Source: a virus (taxonomy: Duplodnaviria > Heunggongvirae > Uroviricota > Caudoviricetes). From it: 4,449 nt of DNA. Numbering within the stretch: position 1 is the first letter of the stretch; each line of letters starts with the position of its first letter. The DNA is taken from the IMG/VR virus record IMGVR_UViG_2703718797_000011; one strand, given 5' to 3'. The notes below the pieces were generated by a model. It saw nothing but the letters and a program-made list of their open reading frames with translations, ran no database searches and was not told the DNA's origin. This document shows, in pieces, positions 1 to 4,449 of this stretch. The position numbers and the translations under genes were made by a program.

Positions 1-564
1 GTTGACTGGTCATTTCCTGTACTGGTGGAAGATGTGGTGATGATGGGCCGCTATGGGCATATGGGTATGTTGCGTATCGCCAAAAAGAGGGATCGTCAAA
101 TTGTCACCGATGCGCTGGAACGTGTCGATATGGTGAATTTTCGCCATCGACAAATCGGCGAGCTTTCCGGTGGACAAAAGAAACGCGTCTTTCTGGCGAG
201 AGCGATTGCACAGCAGGGTGATGTGATCCTGCTGGATGAACCTTTTACTGGCGTTGATGTGAAAACCGAAGCCAAAATCATCAGCCTGTTGAGGGAGTTA
301 CGCGCGGAAGGCAAAACGATGCTTGTCTCAACGCACAATCTCGGATCCGTCACGACATTTTGCGATTATACGGTCATGGTCAAAGGCACCGTCCTGGCAA
401 GCGGGCCGACAGACACCACTTTTACAGCCGAGAACCTGGAGCTGGCTTTTAGCGGCGTACTGCGCCATGTCACACTTAACGGCTCGGAAGAAAGCATTAT
501 TACTGACGATGAACGCCCTTTTGTGGCTCATCGACCGTCAGCGGTGCAGAGGGAAGAAAGATGA
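1..564 (+). CDS. sitB: Metal (Mn2+/Fe2+) ABC transporter ATP-binding subunit, SitB/YfeB-type; 5'-truncated by the window edge (C-terminal ~187 codons present)
   Basis: The frame of track ORF 25..564 stays open back to base 1, so the GTG at 25 is not the real start and the gene begins upstream of the window. The translation carries the ABC signature LSGGQ, Walker B/D-loop [11 protein letters not shown] and H-loop STHN; Walker A is absent, as expected for a C-terminal fragment. The stop overlaps the next gene's ATG (ATGA at 561-564). The symbol is inferred from the two-permease operon architecture and phage-associated context; yfeB-type naming is equally possible. Confidence 0.85.
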
Positions 565-1418
565 ACGTGCTACTGGAACCCTTCAGCTATGAATATATGC
601 TCAATGCGATGTGGGTCTCGGCGATGGTCGGCGGTCTCTGCGCTTTCCTGTCATGCTATCTGATGCTAAAAGGCTGGTCGCTGATTGGCGATGCGTTGTC
701 GCACTCTATTGTCCCGGGTGTTGCGGGGGCATATATGCTGGGGCTTCCGTTTTCTCTGGGAGCCTTCTTTTCCGGCGGACTGGCTGCGGGCAGCATGCTG
801 TTTCTTAACCAACGCACCCGCTTAAAAGAAGATGCCATCATCGGTCTGATCTTCTCGTCCTTTTTTGGCCTGGGGCTGTTTATGGTGTCATTGAACCCGA
901 CATCTGTGAACATTCAGACCATCGTCCTGGGCAATATTCTGGCAATCGATCCGGCGGATATCCTGCAACTCACTATCATTGGCATTCTCTCGATCATCGT
1001 GCTTTTTTTCAAATGGAAAGATCTTATGGTGACCTTTTTCGACGAGAATCACGCCCGTGCTATTGGATTGCATCCGGGCAGATTAAAACTCCTCTTCTTC
1101 ACCCTGCTGTCGGTTTCGACCGTTGCGGCGCTGCAAACGGTTGGTGCCTTTCTGGTGATCTGTCTGGTGGTGACTCCCGGTGCAACAGCATGGTTGTTAA
1201 CCGATCGTTTTCCCCGCCTGCTCATGATTGCTGTAACTATTGGCAGTGTAACCAGTTTCCTCGGCGCGTGGGTCAGTTACTTTCTGGACGGCGCGACAGG
1301 TGGAATCATCGTGGTGGCGCAGACACTGCTGTTTCTTTTAGCATTTGTCTTTGCGCCCACCCATGGGCTTTTGGCAAATCGTCGGCGTGCGCATAAGGCG
1401 CTGGAGGATCGCTCATGA
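561..1418 (+). CDS. sitC: Metal ABC transporter permease, ABC-3 family (SitC/YfeC-type), 285 aa
   Basis: 285-aa strongly hydrophobic ORF with multiple predicted TM helices and the conserved ABC-3 permease motif [11 protein letters not shown]. The ATG overlaps the upstream ATPase stop (translational coupling), with a purine-rich SD-like stretch (GGGAAGAAAG) directly upstream. It is followed by a paralogous second permease, as in sitCD/yfeCD operons. Confidence 0.85.
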
Positions 1419-2272
1419 TGGCATTATTACTGGAGCCACTGCAGTTCACCTTTATGAGTCACGCACTGCTGATTTCACTGGTAGTTTCCATACCCTGTGC
1501 GCTGCTGTCGGTCTTTCTGGTCCTGAAAGGTTGGGCACTGATGGGTGACGCGATGAGTCATGCGGTTTTTCCTGGCATCGTGCTTGCCTGGATTCTGGGG
1601 TTACCTTTGGCTACAGGGGCATTCGTCGCCGGAGTATTCTGCGCGGTGGCGACGGGATACCTGAAAGACAACAGCCGAATCAAGCAAGATACAGTGATGG
1701 GGATTGTTTTTTCTGGCATGTTTGCCGCAGGTCTGATTTTGTATATTGCAGTCAAACCAGACGTACATCTTGACCATATTCTTTTCGGCGACATGCTCGG
1801 GATAACCATCGGCGATATAATCCAGACGATGATTATTGCCGGGCTGGTTACACTTGTTATTAGCGTAAAATGGCGGGATTTTTTGCTGTTCAGCTTTGAT
1901 TATCAACAGGCGCAGGTAAGCGGTTTGCATACGAGATGGCTGCATTATGGGCTGCTGTGCATGGTCTCTCTGACCATTGTGGCGACGCTGAAAGCGGTAG
2001 GTATCATTCTCTCCATTTCTCTGCTCATTGCGCCTGGCGCCATTGCGGTACTCCTGACACAACGCTTTCATATTGCGCTCCTACTGGCGACTGGCATATC
2101 GGTAATAGTGTCAATGACTGGTGTCTGGTTGTCCTTTTTTATCGACAGCGCACCAGCTCCGACGATTGTCGTCTTATTCGCGGTTTTGTTCATCATGACG
2201 TTTGCCGTTACCAGCATCAACGCACGCAAAAAGGGAAACTCCCATACACAGGATCTGTTATCACCCAATTAG
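1415..2272 (+). CDS. sitD: Metal ABC transporter permease, ABC-3 family (SitD/YfeD-type), 285 aa
   Basis: 285-aa hydrophobic ORF, paralogous to the preceding permease, with the equivalent motif GDAMSHAVFPG. The ATG overlaps the sitC stop (ATGA) and a GGAGG SD sits about 8 nt upstream. It is the last gene of the + strand operon, with a TAG stop at 2270-2272. Confidence 0.85.
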   Translation: MMALLLEPLQFTFMSHALLISLVVSIPCALLSVFLVLKGWALMGDAMSHAVFPGIVLAWILGLPLATGAFVAGVFCAVATGYLKDNSRIKQDTVMGIVFSGMFAAGLILYIAVKPDVHLDHILFGDMLGITIGDIIQTMIIAGLVTLVISVKWRDFLLFSFDYQQAQVSGLHTRWLHYGLLCMVSLTIVATLKAVGIILSISLLIAPGAIAVLLTQRFHIALLLATGISVIVSMTGVWLSFFIDSAPAPTIVVLFAVLFIMTFAVTSINARKKGNSHTQDLLSPN

Positions 2273-2319
2273 CACAACATCCGAGGACAGCAACACCCGA
2301 TACTTTTTCCTGGCTTCCA

Positions 2320-2344
2320 GCAACGGGGTTTCTTCCTCCGTTGC
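2320..2344. other. Inverted repeat / stem-loop (7-bp stem GCAACGG...CCGTTGC, 11-nt loop) in the convergent intergenic region
   Basis: Read directly from the sequence between the sitD stop (2272) and the stop of the minus-strand 70-aa ORF (2364). There is no adjacent U-tract on either strand, so it is not a canonical intrinsic terminator; it may be a weak bidirectional terminator or an RNA-stabilising hairpin. Confidence 0.3.
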
Positions 2345-2363
2345 ATATACAGCTCACCTTTTT

Positions 2364-2576
2364 TCAACGCGGATCAAAACCGCCCCACCACGGCATATTC
2401 ATTCGCTTGCCATGCCCGAACATTTCAATCCAGCGATATTCTGCCTGGGTATGTTCACGCGCAATGAAGAACGTACAACCGGCTATCGCTCCGTAAGCCC
2501 AGTTTCCGGTAAAAAGACCAACCAGTATCTGCGCAGCCACAGCACAAAGTGCATGAAGTAAGGGGCTTATATCCAT
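2364..2576 (-). CDS. Hypothetical small membrane protein (70 aa): two predicted hydrophobic helices plus an aromatic/basic C-terminal tail; family not recognised
   Basis: The ATG is preceded by a canonical AGGAGG Shine-Dalgarno with a ~5-nt spacer. The N-terminal ~40 residues are hydrophobic (PLLHALCAVAAQILVGLF, WAYGAIAGCTFFI) and the C-terminus is Trp/Arg/Lys/His-rich (RWIEMFGHGKRMNMPWWGGFDPR). It starts 12 nt downstream of the 92-aa ORF stop on the same strand. GC is about 50 percent, unlike the AT-rich genes upstream of it. Confidence 0.6.
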   Translation of the reverse strand: MDISPLLHALCAVAAQILVGLFTGNWAYGAIAGCTFFIAREHTQAEYRWIEMFGHGKRMNMPWWGGFDPR

Positions 2577-2588
2577 TATTTCCTCCTT
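2577..2588 (-). promoter_or_regulatory. Shine-Dalgarno (AGGAGG) for the 70-aa ORF, located in the 12-nt spacer after the 92-aa ORF stop
   Basis: Plus strand shows CCTCCT at about 2582-2587, i.e. AGGAGG on the minus strand, about 5 nt upstream of the ATG at 2576-2574. It lies immediately after the TGA of the 92-aa ORF (2591-2589). Confidence 0.6.
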
Positions 2589-2867
2589 TCAGCTCCATTC
2601 CCGAAGCGGTGTTTCCAGCTCCACGACATAATCAGAGAATACAGAAACATCAAACAAGTCATCAAGAATGCGAATGTTGACAAAATAACCATCATTCCGG
2701 ATACAGACAGGTTCTCCCTCTTCTGTTACCCCTGTTTCTGTGTAGGTGAAACCAATTTCATCAACTAACAGTTTATTCTGGAGGTCTTCATCTTCCGCCC
2801 AGCCAAGAGATGACAGGAAGGCCTTAAACTGCAGTTTGTCATGAAACTTCAAAGTTAAATCTTTCAT
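2589..2867 (-). CDS. Hypothetical small, strongly acidic protein (92 aa); family not recognised
   Basis: ATG with an AAGAGG SD-like sequence about 5 nt upstream. The start overlaps the stop of the upstream 220-aa ORF (ATGA at 2864-2867). About 20 Asp/Glu against about 9 Lys/Arg/His, including a DEDEDL patch, with no hydrophobic segment. AT-rich (about 40 percent GC) yet open for 92 codons. Confidence 0.6.
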   Translation of the reverse strand: MKDLTLKFHDKLQFKAFLSSLGWAEDEDLQNKLLVDEIGFTYTETGVTEEGEPVCIRNDGYFVNIRILDDLFDVSVFSDYVVELETPLREWS

Positions 2868-3526
2868 ACGACCTCTTTTAATTGCCTGTCATTTAATTCT
2901 TTATGCCATATGCGGAAATTGCGAATATGGCCAAACAGATGTCGTTCTCCAGTATTCGTCTGCCCTCCAAATCGGATATTTTTATCAGCGGTCACGCCAT
3001 TATATTCACAATAAACTTCATTAACCGCTTTACCATTTGTCACCACATGAAAGTGACCATCAGCTTTTGCAATACATCCAAATGTGGTTTTCTCTGCAAA
3101 TACATCTGTCGCTGCGCTATTAACATACGAGCCTGAAGGGTTTGACAGACTCATATATAACTTACCACTACCTCTGTTGATTGCTGCAATTGCTGATTGC
3201 CCGGTATTGGCTGCTGCTATATCCCACACGCGGGGTGCGGCGTTTGGTGCAATATCCCAGTTTTTATGAATCTCAAGTAAAAAAGTAAATGGTAACTTAT
3301 AAAGATTATTTCTGGTGGGGATACTAACCAAATCACTGGCTCTTGTCGTTGCGCTGCCTCCTGAAATAATAAATGATGATACACACGGCCCATTCTCTAC
3401 TTGTGGGGTGGCAAGATAAATATAGTCACCAGATACTGTTGCCCCACCCTGCAATAATTTCAAGCGTTTGCGTATCAATGTACGCATCGCCAAGAAAAGT
3501 TGTTGCACTACCATCATACTTATCAA
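2864..3526 (-). CDS. Hypothetical protein (up to 220 aa) with a putative ConA-like/LamG-type jelly-roll C-terminal domain; start codon uncertain; alternatively a frameshifted distal extension of the tail fiber
   Basis: A 220-codon open frame in roughly 42 percent GC DNA is unlikely by chance. The C-terminal motif NIRFGGQTNTGERHLFGHIRNFRIWHKELNDRQLKEV resembles the terminal strands of LamG/Laminin_G_3-type lectin domains (compare F-x-G-x-I-D-E-V-R-I-Y-x-x-A-L-S-x-x-E-I). The track start at 3526 is a TTG; in-frame ATGs lie at codons 4, 5 and 14, all inside the tail fiber coding region and none with an SD. Downstream of the tail fiber stop there is no ATG until about codon 125. The stop overlaps the ATG of the 92-aa ORF. 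Confidence 0.5.
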   Translation of the reverse strand: MISMMVVQQLFLAMRTLIRKRLKLLQGGATVSGDYIYLATPQVENGPCVSSFIISGGSATTRASDLVSIPTRNNLYKLPFTFLLEIHKNWDIAPNAAPRVWDIAAANTGQSAIAAINRGSGKLYMSLSNPSGSYVNSAATDVFAEKTTFGCIAKADGHFHVVTNGKAVNEVYCEYNGVTADKNIRFGGQTNTGERHLFGHIRNFRIWHKELNDRQLKEVV

Positions 3527-4449
3527 ACCGTATACGTAACCTTACCTGTCGTTCTGTTTTAAAACGGCATGAGGTTGTCACGTACTTGTTATCGCCTGAG
3601 ACATCAACTGACTTTGTTGCAGCAATTGATGCCATATTAATAGCCGAAGTTTGCCCAACCAGAGAATCGTTGCAGACAAACTTTCCATAAGTAAAACCAA
3701 AACTATCCGTCCCGGTTTCGGGCACATCCATGTTTGATGACTTCCCCCAGCTGGCTGGACTTTCCGAATTGAGCATGTAGTTCGTTCTTTGTCCCTCAAT
3801 AAGCAGGCCATCACACTCAAATCGCGGCTCATTAATTTCCGCCGTTTTCAGTTCGCCAGATTTGTTGATATATGTTGCCGTTGATGCGCGACTGAAATTA
3901 ACCTGTTTATCACTGGCGACCTGAACCACATCGTCACCAATAGCTATTTTTTTATAGCCCGGAGAAAAACCCGCAATCATATCCAGTGAATCGTTAAACG
4001 GTATCCACACATCAGGCAGCGGCGGCACTATATTCGCACAGGGCTCTGCAGTCACTTCCGCTGCGGCTTCTGCGCGGTCTGCCGCCTTTTCAGCTCGTGT
4101 CGCTGCCGACAGAGCCTCATCCTTTTTCTGCCCGGCCTTTGTTGCGTCTGCTGCGGCCTCCCGCGCTTTTGTGGTGGCGACTCCGGCATTTTCAGCGGCT
4201 GACTCTGCATTACGGCGGGAAGCCTCTTCACTGTCTGCGGAGGCTTCTTCTGACGCACGGGCATTTGTCTCTGAACGTTCTGCCGCTGTTGCTGCGTTTT
4301 GTGCGGCTGTTTTTGAAGAAGCTGCCGCTTTCGCGCTGTTACCTGCATTCGTCTCTGATGTTTTCGCCGCGTTCCTGGACGATGCCGCTGCTGTTTCTGA
4401 TTTCTTTGCTGCCGCTGCGCTCTGAGAGGCGGCTTCAGCGTTGCGTGCC
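3426..4449 (-). CDS. Phage side tail fiber protein (lambda Stf-like), 5'-truncated by the window edge; C-terminal ~340 codons present
   Basis: The frame of track ORF 3426..4055 remains open upstream of its GTG to the window end. The upstream part translates to an Ala/Ser/Thr/Glu-rich repeat tract (e.g. AAKTSETNAGNSAKAAASSKTAAQNAATAAERSETNARASEEA) that resembles the repeat shaft of lambda Stf-type tail fibers. The distal ~209 aa (TAEPCANIVPPLPDVWIPFNDSL ... EIIAGWGNSIW) is non-repetitive and AT-rich. The track reports only 3426..4055 because the repeat tract lacks ATG/GTG/TTG codons. Confidence 0.8.
   Translation of the reverse strand, partial: ARNAEAASQSAAAAKKSETAAASSRNAAKTSETNAGNSAKAAASSKTAAQNAATAAERSETNARASEEASADSEEASRRNAESAAENAGVATTKAREAAADATKAGQKKDEALSAATRAEKAADRAEAAAEVTAEPCANIVPPLPDVWIPFNDSLDMIAGFSPGYKKIAIGDDVVQVASDKQVNFSRASTATYINKSGELKTAEINEPRFECDGLLIEGQRTNYMLNSESPASWGKSSNMDVPETGTDSFGFTYGKFVCNDSLVGQTSAINMASIAATKSVDVSGDNKYVTTSCRFKTERQVRLRIRFDKYDGSATTFLGDAYIDTQTLEIIAGWGNSIW
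4056..4449 (-). repeat. Ala-rich low-complexity tandem repeat tract, coding (tail fiber shaft repeats)
   Basis: GC-rich GCN-dominated codon periodicity. Degenerate repeating peptide units (KTSETNA, SETNARASEEA, AEKAADRAEAAAE). The other frames give spurious Gln/Arg/Lys-rich and Ala/Phe-rich ORFs (track ORFs 4052..4348 - and 4171..4425 +). Confidence 0.6.

What the first reader, a model, noticed from the sequence alone, without database searches (positions are those of the whole stretch)
2364..3526. Uncharacterised three-gene cassette (220 aa LamG-like, 92 aa acidic, 70 aa membrane) wedged between the tail fiber and the cargo operon
Three minus-strand ORFs are packed with operon-like coupling: the 220-aa ORF overlaps the tail fiber 3' end, the 92-aa ORF overlaps the 220-aa stop (ATGA), and the 70-aa ORF follows after 12 nt with a perfect AGGAGG SD. 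None is recognisable as a canonical tail fiber assembly protein, lysis gene or other standard phage late gene. The position immediately downstream of the tail fiber is a known hotspot for accessory genes such as host-range modules, superinfection exclusion, anti-defence, defence and toxins. A putative carbohydrate-binding domain, a highly acidic small protein and a tiny membrane protein together would fit either a receptor-binding/chaperone module or a small exclusion or defence system. I could not assign any of the three to a known family.
Basis: partly seen in the sequence, partly recalled or inferred. Interest (0 to 1): 0.75.

Follow-up and report, generated by a model that had tools for sequence, protein, structure and literature searches.

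The report
Broken tail-fiber gene plus two small genes
The supposed three-gene cassette is the known end of the tail module of a phage 21/Perceval-type prophage: the "220-aa gene" is the cut-off C-terminal part of the side tail fiber gene, the 70-aa ORF is a shortened copy of a conserved 97-aa membrane protein, and only the 92-aa gene is intact, so the finding is ordinary.

Summary
The ORFs, the ATGA overlap, the 12-nt spacer and the AGGAGG site exist as described, but this is not a three-gene cassette. The window matches E. coli LF82 prophage Perceval and phage 21 (side tail fiber gene 22, genes 23 and 24, then sitDCBA), apart from two lesions found nowhere else.

- **Fiber lesion:** 140 nt are replaced by 3 nt at 3453-3455. 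This frameshifts the 686-aa fiber gene, so the "220-aa LamG-like ORF" is fiber codons 492-686 plus a spurious out-of-frame start. It is comparable to orf-401/orf-314 of lambda PaPa.
- **Gene 24 lesion:** 82 nt are replaced by 1 nt at 2367. This removes the last 27 residues of the 97-aa protein, including three conserved positions and the third helix.
- **Origin of the lesions:** both start where public short-read contigs repeatedly end, so they may be assembly joins rather than biology.

The two small genes are real, under purifying selection, syntenic with this fiber family in E. coli prophages, and without a known function, even after expert HHpred annotation of phage 21. The 92-aa family is restricted to Escherichia/Shigella. 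The 97-aa family is broad, recurs beside tail-fiber genes in unrelated phages, and has no Pfam family.

Verdict: already known, low interest.

The parts
3456..4449 (-). 5' part of the side tail fiber gene (stf, phage 21 gene 22 / PERCE_22), about codons 114-444 of 686. It runs off the right end of the window.
   Evidence: Base-for-base identical to LF82. Matches phrog_1419 positions 299-550. Annotated as side tail fiber / tail fiber protein in phage 21 and Perceval.
3453..3455 (.). Lesion 1: 3 nt (AAT on the + strand) stand where LF82 has 140 nt, a net loss of 137 nt that frameshifts stf.
   Evidence: Removes fiber residues 445-490 plus 2 nt. The junction is absent from 5426 complete E. coli genomes, IMG/VR and metagenome contigs.
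3426..3455 (-). Out-of-frame tail (IAGWGNSIW) and premature stop of the truncated fiber product.
   Evidence: Translation.
3453..3526 (-). Spurious N-terminal extension of the '220-aa ORF' (TTG start, MISMMVVQQLFLAMRTLIRKRLKLLQ), read out of frame over fiber codons.
   Evidence: PHROG homology starts only at ORF residue 26. No strong Shine-Dalgarno site lies upstream of the TTG.
2864..3452 (-). 3' part of stf: fiber codons 492-686 plus stop. It holds the end of the GTA-head-spike-fiber-like domain and the C-terminal LamG-like domain. This is the real content of the '220-aa ORF'.
   Evidence: phrog_1419 positions 597-793 of 793, E 1.5e-73. 100% identical to LF82. Laminin_G_3 26.7 bits. NF048003 positions 147-181.
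2589..2867 (-). Intact 92-aa gene (phage 21 gene 23 / PERCE_23 / WP_000654168.1, phrog_1361). Acidic soluble alpha/beta protein, translationally coupled to stf through the ATGA overlap.
   Evidence: Identical to LF82. phrog_1361 E 3e-42. dN/dS 0.27-0.34. AlphaFold model pLDDT 89.9.
2577..2588 (-). 12-nt spacer containing the AGGAGG ribosome-binding site of gene 24.
   Evidence: Sequence. An RBS is annotated at the same place in phage 21.
2364..2576 (-). Truncated copy (70 codons plus stop) of the 97-aa membrane-protein gene (phage 21 gene 24 / PERCE_24 / WP_000355360.1, phrog_1443).
   Evidence: Matches phrog_1443 positions 1-70 of 97. The LF82 protein is 97 aa. Lacks conserved W72, D79, P83 and helix 74-96.
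2367..2367 (.). Lesion 2: 1 nt stands where LF82 has 82 nt, a net in-frame loss of 81 nt that runs up to the original stop codon.
   Evidence: The junction is absent from complete E. coli genomes, IMG/VR and metagenomes. It coincides with recurrent contig ends.
1..2272 (+). sitB (3' part, to 564), sitC (561-1418) and sitD (1415-2272): the prophage-borne iron/manganese transporter operon, convergent with the tail module.
   Evidence: 99.8% identical to LF82.

Best explanation
Shown: the region is the distal end of the late tail operon of a phage 21/Perceval-type lambdoid prophage that carries sitABCD. The normal gene order is J, (lom), stf (686-aa side tail fiber), gene 23 (92 aa), gene 24 (97 aa), then the convergent sitDCBA. 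In this window stf carries a net 137-nt deletion that shifts the frame. The N-terminal two thirds then end prematurely at 3426, and the C-terminal 195 codons survive in another frame, where a chance TTG creates the '220-aa ORF'. Gene 24 has lost its last 27 codons. The locus as written would therefore make no functional side fibers and probably no functional gene 24 product. Only gene 23 is intact.

Inferred function of the intact module:
- The Stf N-terminal domain docks on the tail tip, an alanine-rich coiled coil forms the shaft, and a GTA-head-spike-fiber-like domain plus a LamG-like tip bind a surface receptor, probably a glycan.
- gp23 is most likely a fiber-linked accessory factor for assembly or attachment (about 0.45). 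It always starts at the fiber stop codon and occurs only with this fiber family.
- gp24 is a three-helix inner-membrane protein that acts in the producing or lysogenic cell. The most likely role is receptor masking or superinfection exclusion matched to fiber-bearing phages (about 0.3). This is unproven.

The two lesions are either prophage decay or end-to-end contig joins in the source assembly. Either way the conclusion about the ORFs is the same.
For: - PHROG: the 220-aa ORF matches positions 597-793 and the upstream ORF positions 299-550 of the same 793-position tail-protein profile.
- The window differs from LF82 only by 140->3 nt and 82->1 nt replacements within 2250-4449. The LF82 fiber is a single 686-aa frame.
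- The module is 100% identical in phage Perceval and 98.6% in phage 21, annotated as side tail fiber / hypothetical / putative membrane protein, followed by sitDCBA.
- Relatives carry intact fibers of 653-687 aa followed by the 92-aa gene.
- The intact fiber matches NF048003 GTA_spike_fiber (56.8 bits) and PDB 6tb9 Rcc01080. Its N-terminus matches the tail fiber chain of PDB 9e7m.
- Synteny: a 92-aa homolog starts at the fiber stop in 78 of the 80 IMG/VR loci fetched through the 97-aa gene (79 of which retain fiber sequence). The 97-aa gene follows in 10 of 10 loci found through the 92-aa gene that had enough flank.
- Purifying selection acts on both small genes.
- The deleted 27 residues hold 3 of the 10 most conserved positions and helix 3.
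- In LF82 transcriptomes stf, 23 and 24 rise together in macrophages (log2FC 4.85, 3.73, 3.0) while lom and a tail assembly gene do not.
Against: - The functions of gp23 and gp24 rest on position and conservation only. No family, fold or literature match supports them.
- The gp23 class does not track fiber C-domain identity: gp23 at 99% or 90% identity goes with fiber tips at 41-43% identity. This weakens a strict chaperone-client model.
- gp24 homologs also occur as lone chromosomal genes (Aeromonas), so a fiber-related role is not obligatory.
- The macrophage-specific rise in a lysogen, with the highest signal on gene 23, hints at a moron-like promoter rather than pure late expression. Read multi-mapping among LF82 prophages is possible.
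- Whether the lesions are biological cannot be decided without reads.
Confidence: 0.93

Rival explanations
1. One reading: an independent three-gene accessory cassette (carbohydrate-binding protein, acidic protein, tiny membrane protein) inserted behind the fiber. It would act as a host-range/chaperone module or as a small exclusion or defence system.
For: The ORFs and their tight coupling exist. Two of the three products have no known function. stf, 23 and 24 are co-regulated in LF82 inside macrophages.
Against: The 220-aa ORF is the C-terminus of the fiber gene. The exact product is unknown among about 15 billion proteins. Its start is out-of-frame fiber sequence. The 70-aa ORF is a truncation. 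PADLOC gives no hit. The arrangement is the regular end of the tail module, not an insertion.
Confidence: 0.04
2. The two lesions are not biological. The window comes from an assembly in which contigs that broke at repeat branch points (multi-copy prophage fiber modules) were joined end to end, losing two short segments of 82 and 140 nt. The real genome would then carry an intact stf and an intact 97-aa gene.
For: - Neither junction occurs in 5426 complete E. coli genomes, IMG/VR or metagenome contigs.
- The rest of 2250-4449 is identical to LF82.
- Lesion 2 begins exactly where 54 public contigs end. Those contigs end ...CCGCG, CGT, CGTG or CGA, and the window reads CCGCG-T-TGA.
- Lesion 1 ends at fiber codon 491/492, where contig-end partials of 194/195 aa (23 contigs) and of 491 aa (23 contigs) occur.
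- The region is multi-copy in many genomes: median 2 and up to 11 places per genome.
- Filler bases at both junctions are unusual for simple deletions in E. coli (own knowledge).
Against: No reads or assembly metadata are available. The inner boundary of lesion 1 (fiber codon 444/445) was not shown to be a recurrent contig end. The 'AA' filler at lesion 1 matches neither allele seen. Genuine prophage decay by deletion is common.
Confidence: 0.5
3. The lesions are genuine prophage decay. A lineage-specific deletion inactivated stf, as in lambda PaPa, and a second one truncated gene 24, leaving a prophage that lacks side fibers or is defective.
For: Side fibers are dispensable for plaque formation in lambda, and laboratory lambda carries a frameshifted stf (PMC12617516). 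Other relatives show independent damage: an IS insertion in the fiber of phage 1W, and frameshifted or partial fibers annotated in strain PAR.
Against: Both junctions are unique to this window and coincide with assembly breakpoints. Two private lesions within 1.1 kb of otherwise identical sequence are unexpected.
Confidence: 0.45

Closest known systems
Phage 21 genes 22-24 (OL657228.1) and phage Perceval PERCE_22-24 (OV696612.1, prophage of E. coli LF82)
   Same: Same genes in the same order with the same sitDCBA neighbour. 98.6% and 100% nucleotide identity over the intact module, and the same ATGA overlap and RBS.
   Different: The window has a 137-nt net frameshifting loss in gene 22 and an 81-nt in-frame loss in gene 24.
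Lambda PaPa stf frameshift (orf-401 / orf-314) versus Ur-lambda
   Same: A side tail fiber gene split by a frameshift into two apparent ORFs. The downstream one holds the receptor-binding end and looks like a separate gene. Side fibers are lost without loss of plaque formation (PMC12617516; Hendrix & Duda 1992 as cited there).
   Different: The lambda lesion is described there only as a frameshift mutation; that it is a single-base change is my own knowledge. Here 140 nt are replaced by 3 nt. The fiber tip here is GTA-spike-fiber-like plus LamG-like, not the OmpC-binding lambda tip. The lesion here may be an assembly artefact.
Lambda stf-tfa module (fiber plus Tfa assembly chaperone)
   Same: A small gene immediately downstream of, and coupled to, the side tail fiber gene. 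This is the position expected for a fiber accessory or assembly factor.
   Different: gp23 (92 aa, alpha/beta, acidic) has no sequence or fold similarity to Tfa-type chaperones. Its sequence class does not track the fiber tip.
RcGTA head spike fiber Rcc01080 (PDB 6tb9; NCBIfam NF048003)
   Same: The middle domain of the intact fiber (residues about 297-543) matches it (E 6e-10 and 4e-15).
   Different: Here the domain sits in a tail side fiber behind a lambda-type N-terminal anchor and is followed by a LamG-like domain. In the window the domain is interrupted by lesion 1.
Receptor-masking or exclusion proteins encoded beside receptor-binding genes (T5 Llp, phi80/N15 Cor; own knowledge)
   Same: A small envelope protein encoded next to the adsorption genes. 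This is the working analogy for gp24.
   Different: Llp and Cor are outer-membrane lipoproteins. gp24 has no lipobox, is a three-helix integral membrane protein, shows no sequence relation to them, and has no demonstrated phenotype.

Membership tests
Lambdoid side tail fiber (phage 21 gp22 type; phrog_1419) | The 220-aa ORF aligns to the C-terminal end of the family profile, co-linear with the upstream ORF | tested here: met
   Positions 597-793 of 793 (E 1.5e-73) and 299-550 (E 2e-146).
Lambdoid side tail fiber (phage 21 gp22 type; phrog_1419) | One uninterrupted reading frame from the N-terminal anchor to the C-terminal tip | tested here: not met
   Intact in LF82, Perceval, phage 21 and 8 other loci. 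The window has a net -137 nt frameshift at 3453-3455, so it is a disrupted member.
Lambdoid side tail fiber (phage 21 gp22 type; phrog_1419) | N-terminal phage_tail_N anchor domain (PF08400) | not testable with these tools
   It lies beyond the right end of the window. It is present in the otherwise identical relatives and matches the tail fiber chain of PDB 9e7m.
Concanavalin A-like / Laminin_G_3 (PF13385) | Score at or above the Pfam gathering cut-off | tested here: inconclusive
   26.7 bits against 27.6, E 6.9e-6, residues 94-215. A 'faint' hit is also recorded on an intact relative.
GTA head spike fiber domain (NCBIfam NF048003) | Full-length domain match above the cut-off | tested here: not met
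   The intact LF82 fiber scores 56.8 bits against a cut-off of 36, over positions 1-181. The window's 220-aa ORF retains only positions 147-181 and scores 29.6 bits, below the cut-off. The domain is split by lesion 1.
Tfa-type tail fiber assembly chaperones (lambda Tfa / Caudo_TAP) | Sequence or fold similarity of the 92-aa protein | tested here: not met
phrog_1361 (unknown function) = phage 21 gp23 family | Full-length profile match | tested here: met
   E 3.2e-42 over positions 1-91 of 92. The diverged 89-aa form also matches, E 1.2e-29.
phrog_1443 (unknown function) = phage 21 gp24 family | Full-length profile match including the conserved W72, D79, P83 and third helix | tested here: not met
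   The window matches only positions 1-70 of 97. The missing part holds 3 of 10 conserved positions and helix 74-96.
Known anti-phage defence systems (PADLOC-DB 2.0) | Any component model hit for the fiber, the 92-aa or the 97-aa protein | tested here: not met
   No hit at E <= 0.1.
Known holins / superinfection-exclusion membrane proteins | Sequence or fold similarity of the 97-aa protein | tested here: not met
   Pfam: none for the protein itself. 1 of 40 remote members hits Phage_holin_8 weakly (E 0.0036). The PHROG is 'unknown function'. BFVD and PDB searches give nothing significant.

The most novel reading that the evidence does not exclude
Leaving aside the broken copy in this window, gp23 and especially gp24 could be undescribed functional families tied to tail fibers. 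The gp24 family has 438 clusters at 50% identity, no Pfam family and a conserved H...GRE..QAE...W...D...P signature. It recurs directly behind tail-fiber genes in lambdoid, P2/HP1-like and Comamonas J-like prophages. Together with gene 23 and stf it is switched on in LF82 inside macrophages. It could be a new kind of fiber-matched envelope modifier or exclusion protein expressed conditionally in lysogens.
Probability: 0.25. Interest if true: 0.5.

Novelty: already known. Interest (0 to 1): 0.15.

Why it matters
For this window it matters little. It shows that a plausible 'mystery cassette' is a split tail fiber gene plus two known hypothetical genes, and it warns that the lesions which create such ORFs may be assembly joins at prophage repeats.

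The wider lead is modest. Two conserved families of unknown function sit at the end of the side-fiber module of a classic phage (21) and of a prophage of a Crohn's-disease-associated strain. Both are under purifying selection, and they are co-induced with the fiber gene in macrophages. Finding their roles would fill a gap in lambdoid tail biology and could help engineered-fiber delivery systems.

Tried and rejected
- **Family libraries:** Pfam, NCBIfam, PADLOC and PHROG searches of all products gave no functional assignment for the 92-aa and 97-aa proteins.
- **Remote homologs:** a profile search of 1.84 billion representatives enlarged the 97-aa family but reached no annotated domain.
- **Literature:** nothing on 'Ybl63'. 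The phage 21 paper and the LF82 paper do not discuss genes 23/24. Two Stf-engineering papers do not mention accessory genes for such fibers.
- **Strict chaperone-client model:** co-variation of the 92-aa class with the fiber tip was tested and rejected (Spearman 0.10; gp23 at 99% identity goes with a tip at 41%).
- **Read-through from sit:** rejected as the cause of macrophage expression, because sitD peaks in DMEM at 1 h, where gene 24 is not raised.
- **Programmed frameshift or naturally split fiber:** rejected, because no other genome has the junction and all relatives are single-frame.
- **Promoters and terminators:** the scan found no more sites than expected by chance.
Full report
**1. 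What is in the sequence**

The window holds sitB (partial), sitC and sitD on the + strand (1-2272). On the minus strand it holds ORFs of 70 aa (2364-2576), 92 aa (2589-2867) and 220 aa (2864-3526, TTG start), plus a long ORF that enters from the right end and stops at 3426.

So is the 12-nt spacer 2577-2588, which reads AAGGAGGAAATA on the coding strand.

**2. Identity of the locus**

The region 2250-4449 is 100% identical to E. coli LF82, NRG857C, NC101 and other strains. However, it aligns in three pieces that span 2418 nt of those genomes against 2200 nt of the query.

In LF82 the gene order is J, lom, tail fiber, a 92-aa gene, a 97-aa gene, then the convergent sitDCBA, with an icd fragment beyond. 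The same module is 100% identical in the active LF82 prophage Perceval and 98.6% identical in the classical lambdoid phage 21. Phage 21 annotates it as gene 22 'side tail fiber' (686 aa), gene 23 'hypothetical protein' (92 aa) and gene 24 'putative membrane protein' (97 aa), followed by sitDCBA.

**3. The 220-aa ORF is the end of the fiber gene**

- PHROG places the 220-aa ORF on positions 597-793 of the 793-position tail-protein family phrog_1419. The upstream ORF falls on positions 299-550 of the same profile.
- In LF82 one frame reads without interruption from MAVKISG... to ...LKEVV (686 aa). Eight further relatives have fibers of 653-687 aa.
- The window differs by a replacement of 140 nt by 3 nt at 3453-3455, a net loss of 137 nt. 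This removes residues 445-490 and shifts the frame. The rest of 3456-4449 is identical to LF82.
- The upstream frame then ends after nine wrong residues (IAGWGNSIW*, stop at 3426). Codons 492-686 continue in another frame.
- The first 26 residues of the '220-aa ORF' are an out-of-frame reading of fiber codons behind a TTG with no convincing ribosome-binding site.
- The exact 220-aa product is absent from a collection of about 15 billion proteins.
- This is the same situation as laboratory lambda, where a frameshift in stf abolishes the side fibers (PMC12617516).

The LamG-like call is weakly supported (Laminin_G_3, 26.7 bits against a cut-off of 27.6). The intact fiber also has a domain like the head spike fiber of the Rhodobacter gene transfer agent (NF048003, 56.8 bits; PDB 6tb9). 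Lesion 1 cuts this domain.

**4. The 70-aa ORF is a truncated 97-aa gene**

The window has 1 nt (position 2367) where LF82 has 82 nt. This is a net in-frame loss of the last 27 codons that runs up to the original stop. The ORF matches positions 1-70 of the 97-position phrog_1443.

The lost part contains W72, D79 and P83, which are among the ten most conserved positions of the family. It also contains the third predicted helix, 74-96.

**5. Are the lesions real?**

Neither junction occurs in 5426 complete E. coli genomes, in IMG/VR or in metagenome contigs.

Both lesions touch places where public short-read contigs repeatedly end.
- **Gene 24, codon 70:** the exact 70-aa product exists only as contig-end partial genes on 54 contigs. 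Those contigs end ...CCGCG, CGT, CGTG or CGA, and the window reads CCGCG-T-TGA.
- **Fiber, codon 491/492:** there are partials of 194/195 aa starting GGATV/QGGATV on 23 contigs, and an N-terminal partial of 491 aa on 23 contigs.

The region is multi-copy in many genomes. The lesions may therefore be end-to-end contig joins that lost two short repeat-bounded segments. I put this at about even odds against genuine prophage decay, and only reads or PCR can decide. Neither outcome changes the reading of the ORFs.

**6. The two small genes**

Both genes are under purifying selection.

| Gene | dN/dS, close pairs | Distant pairs |
|---|---|---|
| 92-aa (gene 23) | 0.27-0.34 | pN 0.24-0.42 vs pS 0.75-0.87 |
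| 97-aa (gene 24) | 0.09-0.28 | pN about 0.25-0.29 vs pS about 0.8 (Leclercia, Comamonas, Aeromonas) |

*The 92-aa family* is narrow: 47 clusters, all Escherichia or Shigella.
- I fetched 80 IMG/VR loci through the 97-aa gene; 79 of them retain fiber sequence. A 92-aa homolog starts at the fiber stop in 66 loci. A diverged 89-aa homolog does so in 12 more (31% identity; phrog_1361 E 1e-29).
- Its sequence classes (about 98, 90, 62, 53 and 31% identity) do not simply follow the fiber tip. gp23 at 99% or 90% identity occurs with tips at 41-43% identity.

*The 97-aa family* is broad: 577 clusters at 90% identity and 438 at 50% identity, nearly all stand-alone proteins of about 90-110 aa.
- It has no Pfam, NCBIfam or PADLOC family.
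- It stays 91-100% identical whatever the fiber class.
- It is found behind a J-like gene in a Comamonas prophage. In a Leclercia P2/HP1-like prophage it sits directly behind an S74 tail fiber, inside the baseplate module. In Aeromonas it is a lone chromosomal gene.
- The model has three helices (pLDDT 93.8) and no informative structural neighbour.

In most E. coli loci an extra tail-fiber gene with a Peptidase_S74 chaperone domain (227 or 346 aa) lies between the two small genes. The phage 21/window arrangement, with a 12-nt spacer, is the minority form.

**7. Expression**

In LF82 grown in LB neither small gene qualifies as a moron. In the supplementary table of the same study, stf, gene 23 and gene 24 rise together inside macrophages (log2FC 4.85, 3.73 and 3.0, all significant). 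By contrast lom (-2.07) and a tail assembly gene (-1.12) do not change significantly, and J rises only modestly (+2.05).

sitD peaks in a different condition, which argues against read-through from the sit operon. Multi-mapping among the LF82 prophages cannot be excluded.

**8. Mechanism**

*Shown:* this is a side-fiber module whose fiber gene and gene 24 are disrupted as written.

*Inferred:*
- The fiber is anchored by its N-terminal domain and binds a receptor, probably a glycan, with its GTA-spike-like and LamG-like tip.
- gp23 is a fiber-linked accessory factor for assembly or attachment (about 0.45).
- gp24 is an inner-membrane protein acting in the producing or lysogenic cell, possibly in receptor masking or exclusion (about 0.3).

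Expert annotation of phage 21, which included HHpred, also left both genes unassigned.

**9. Verdict**

The three-gene cassette is not real. The locus is already known and annotated, and the window adds only two lesions of doubtful origin. Interest is low. The residual lead is the unknown function of the gp23 and gp24 families.

Noticed in passing
LF82 Perceval PERCE_22-24 (= window 2364-4449); PMC9928086 S4 Table: Inside macrophages stf, the 92-aa gene and the 97-aa gene are up 8- to 30-fold over LB (log2FC 4.85, 3.73, 3.0), with the highest level on the 92-aa gene. lom and the upstream tail assembly gene stay at background. This suggests a conditional promoter within or before stf. The paper does not discuss it.
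   Followed up: partly
L052 3418-4458; L023 3807-4490 (and about 60 of 80 IMG/VR loci): Most related E. coli prophages carry an extra short tail-fiber gene (346 or 227 aa) between the 92-aa-type and 97-aa genes. These proteins share the N-terminus MVTKTVIP and have a Peptidase_S74 intramolecular chaperone domain. This hints at branched or dual fibers.
   Followed up: partly
L047 5041-6084: A second fiber gene with a phage_tail_N N-terminal domain (347 aa) lies after the 97-aa gene. In some prophages the membrane-protein gene is therefore flanked by fiber genes on both sides.
   Followed up: no
L096 6001-6297 (Leclercia), L013 7001-7303 (Comamonas), L014 7001-7309 (Aeromonas): Homologs of the 97-aa protein (57-68% identity) occur in three settings: directly behind an S74 tail fiber inside the baseplate module of a P2/HP1-like prophage, behind a 2520-aa J-like protein, and as a lone chromosomal gene between pirin and RIO1 kinase genes.
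   Followed up: partly
window 2367 and 3452-3455; L003-L010 contig ends: Public short-read contigs of many E. coli assemblies end exactly at codon 70 of the 97-aa gene and at codon 491/492 of the fiber gene. These are allele branch points between multi-copy prophage modules, and they are the same positions as the window's lesions.
   Followed up: yes
L001 7052-8756 (LF82 RefSeq) versus L012 6597-8663 (Perceval GenBank): RefSeq/PGAP marks the intact LF82 fiber gene as a pseudogene ('missing C-terminus') and leaves its last 350 nt unannotated. The reading frame is nevertheless complete, and the phage record annotates a full-length CDS. This looks like an artefact of domain-model-based naming.
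   Followed up: partly
L095 999-3415 (phage 1W, OM475428.1): Three 'mobile element protein' genes (an IS element) are inserted at the 3' end of the fiber gene in phages 1W, 3W and 4A7. The 92-aa and 97-aa genes and sitD are still downstream, so this is an independent disruption of the same fiber.
   Followed up: no
window 4052-4348 (-) and 4171-4425 (+): ORFs of 98 aa and 84 aa lie in alternative frames of the alanine-rich coiled-coil part of the fiber gene. They are compositional by-products (GC about 0.59, strong AT skew) and not genes.
   Followed up: partly
window 1-2366: The sitBCD part differs from LF82 by only 4 substitutions (99.83%). The sit operon is a prophage-borne moron in phage 21 and Perceval, convergent with the tail module and separated from it by a 91-nt spacer (2273-2363).
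   Followed up: partly
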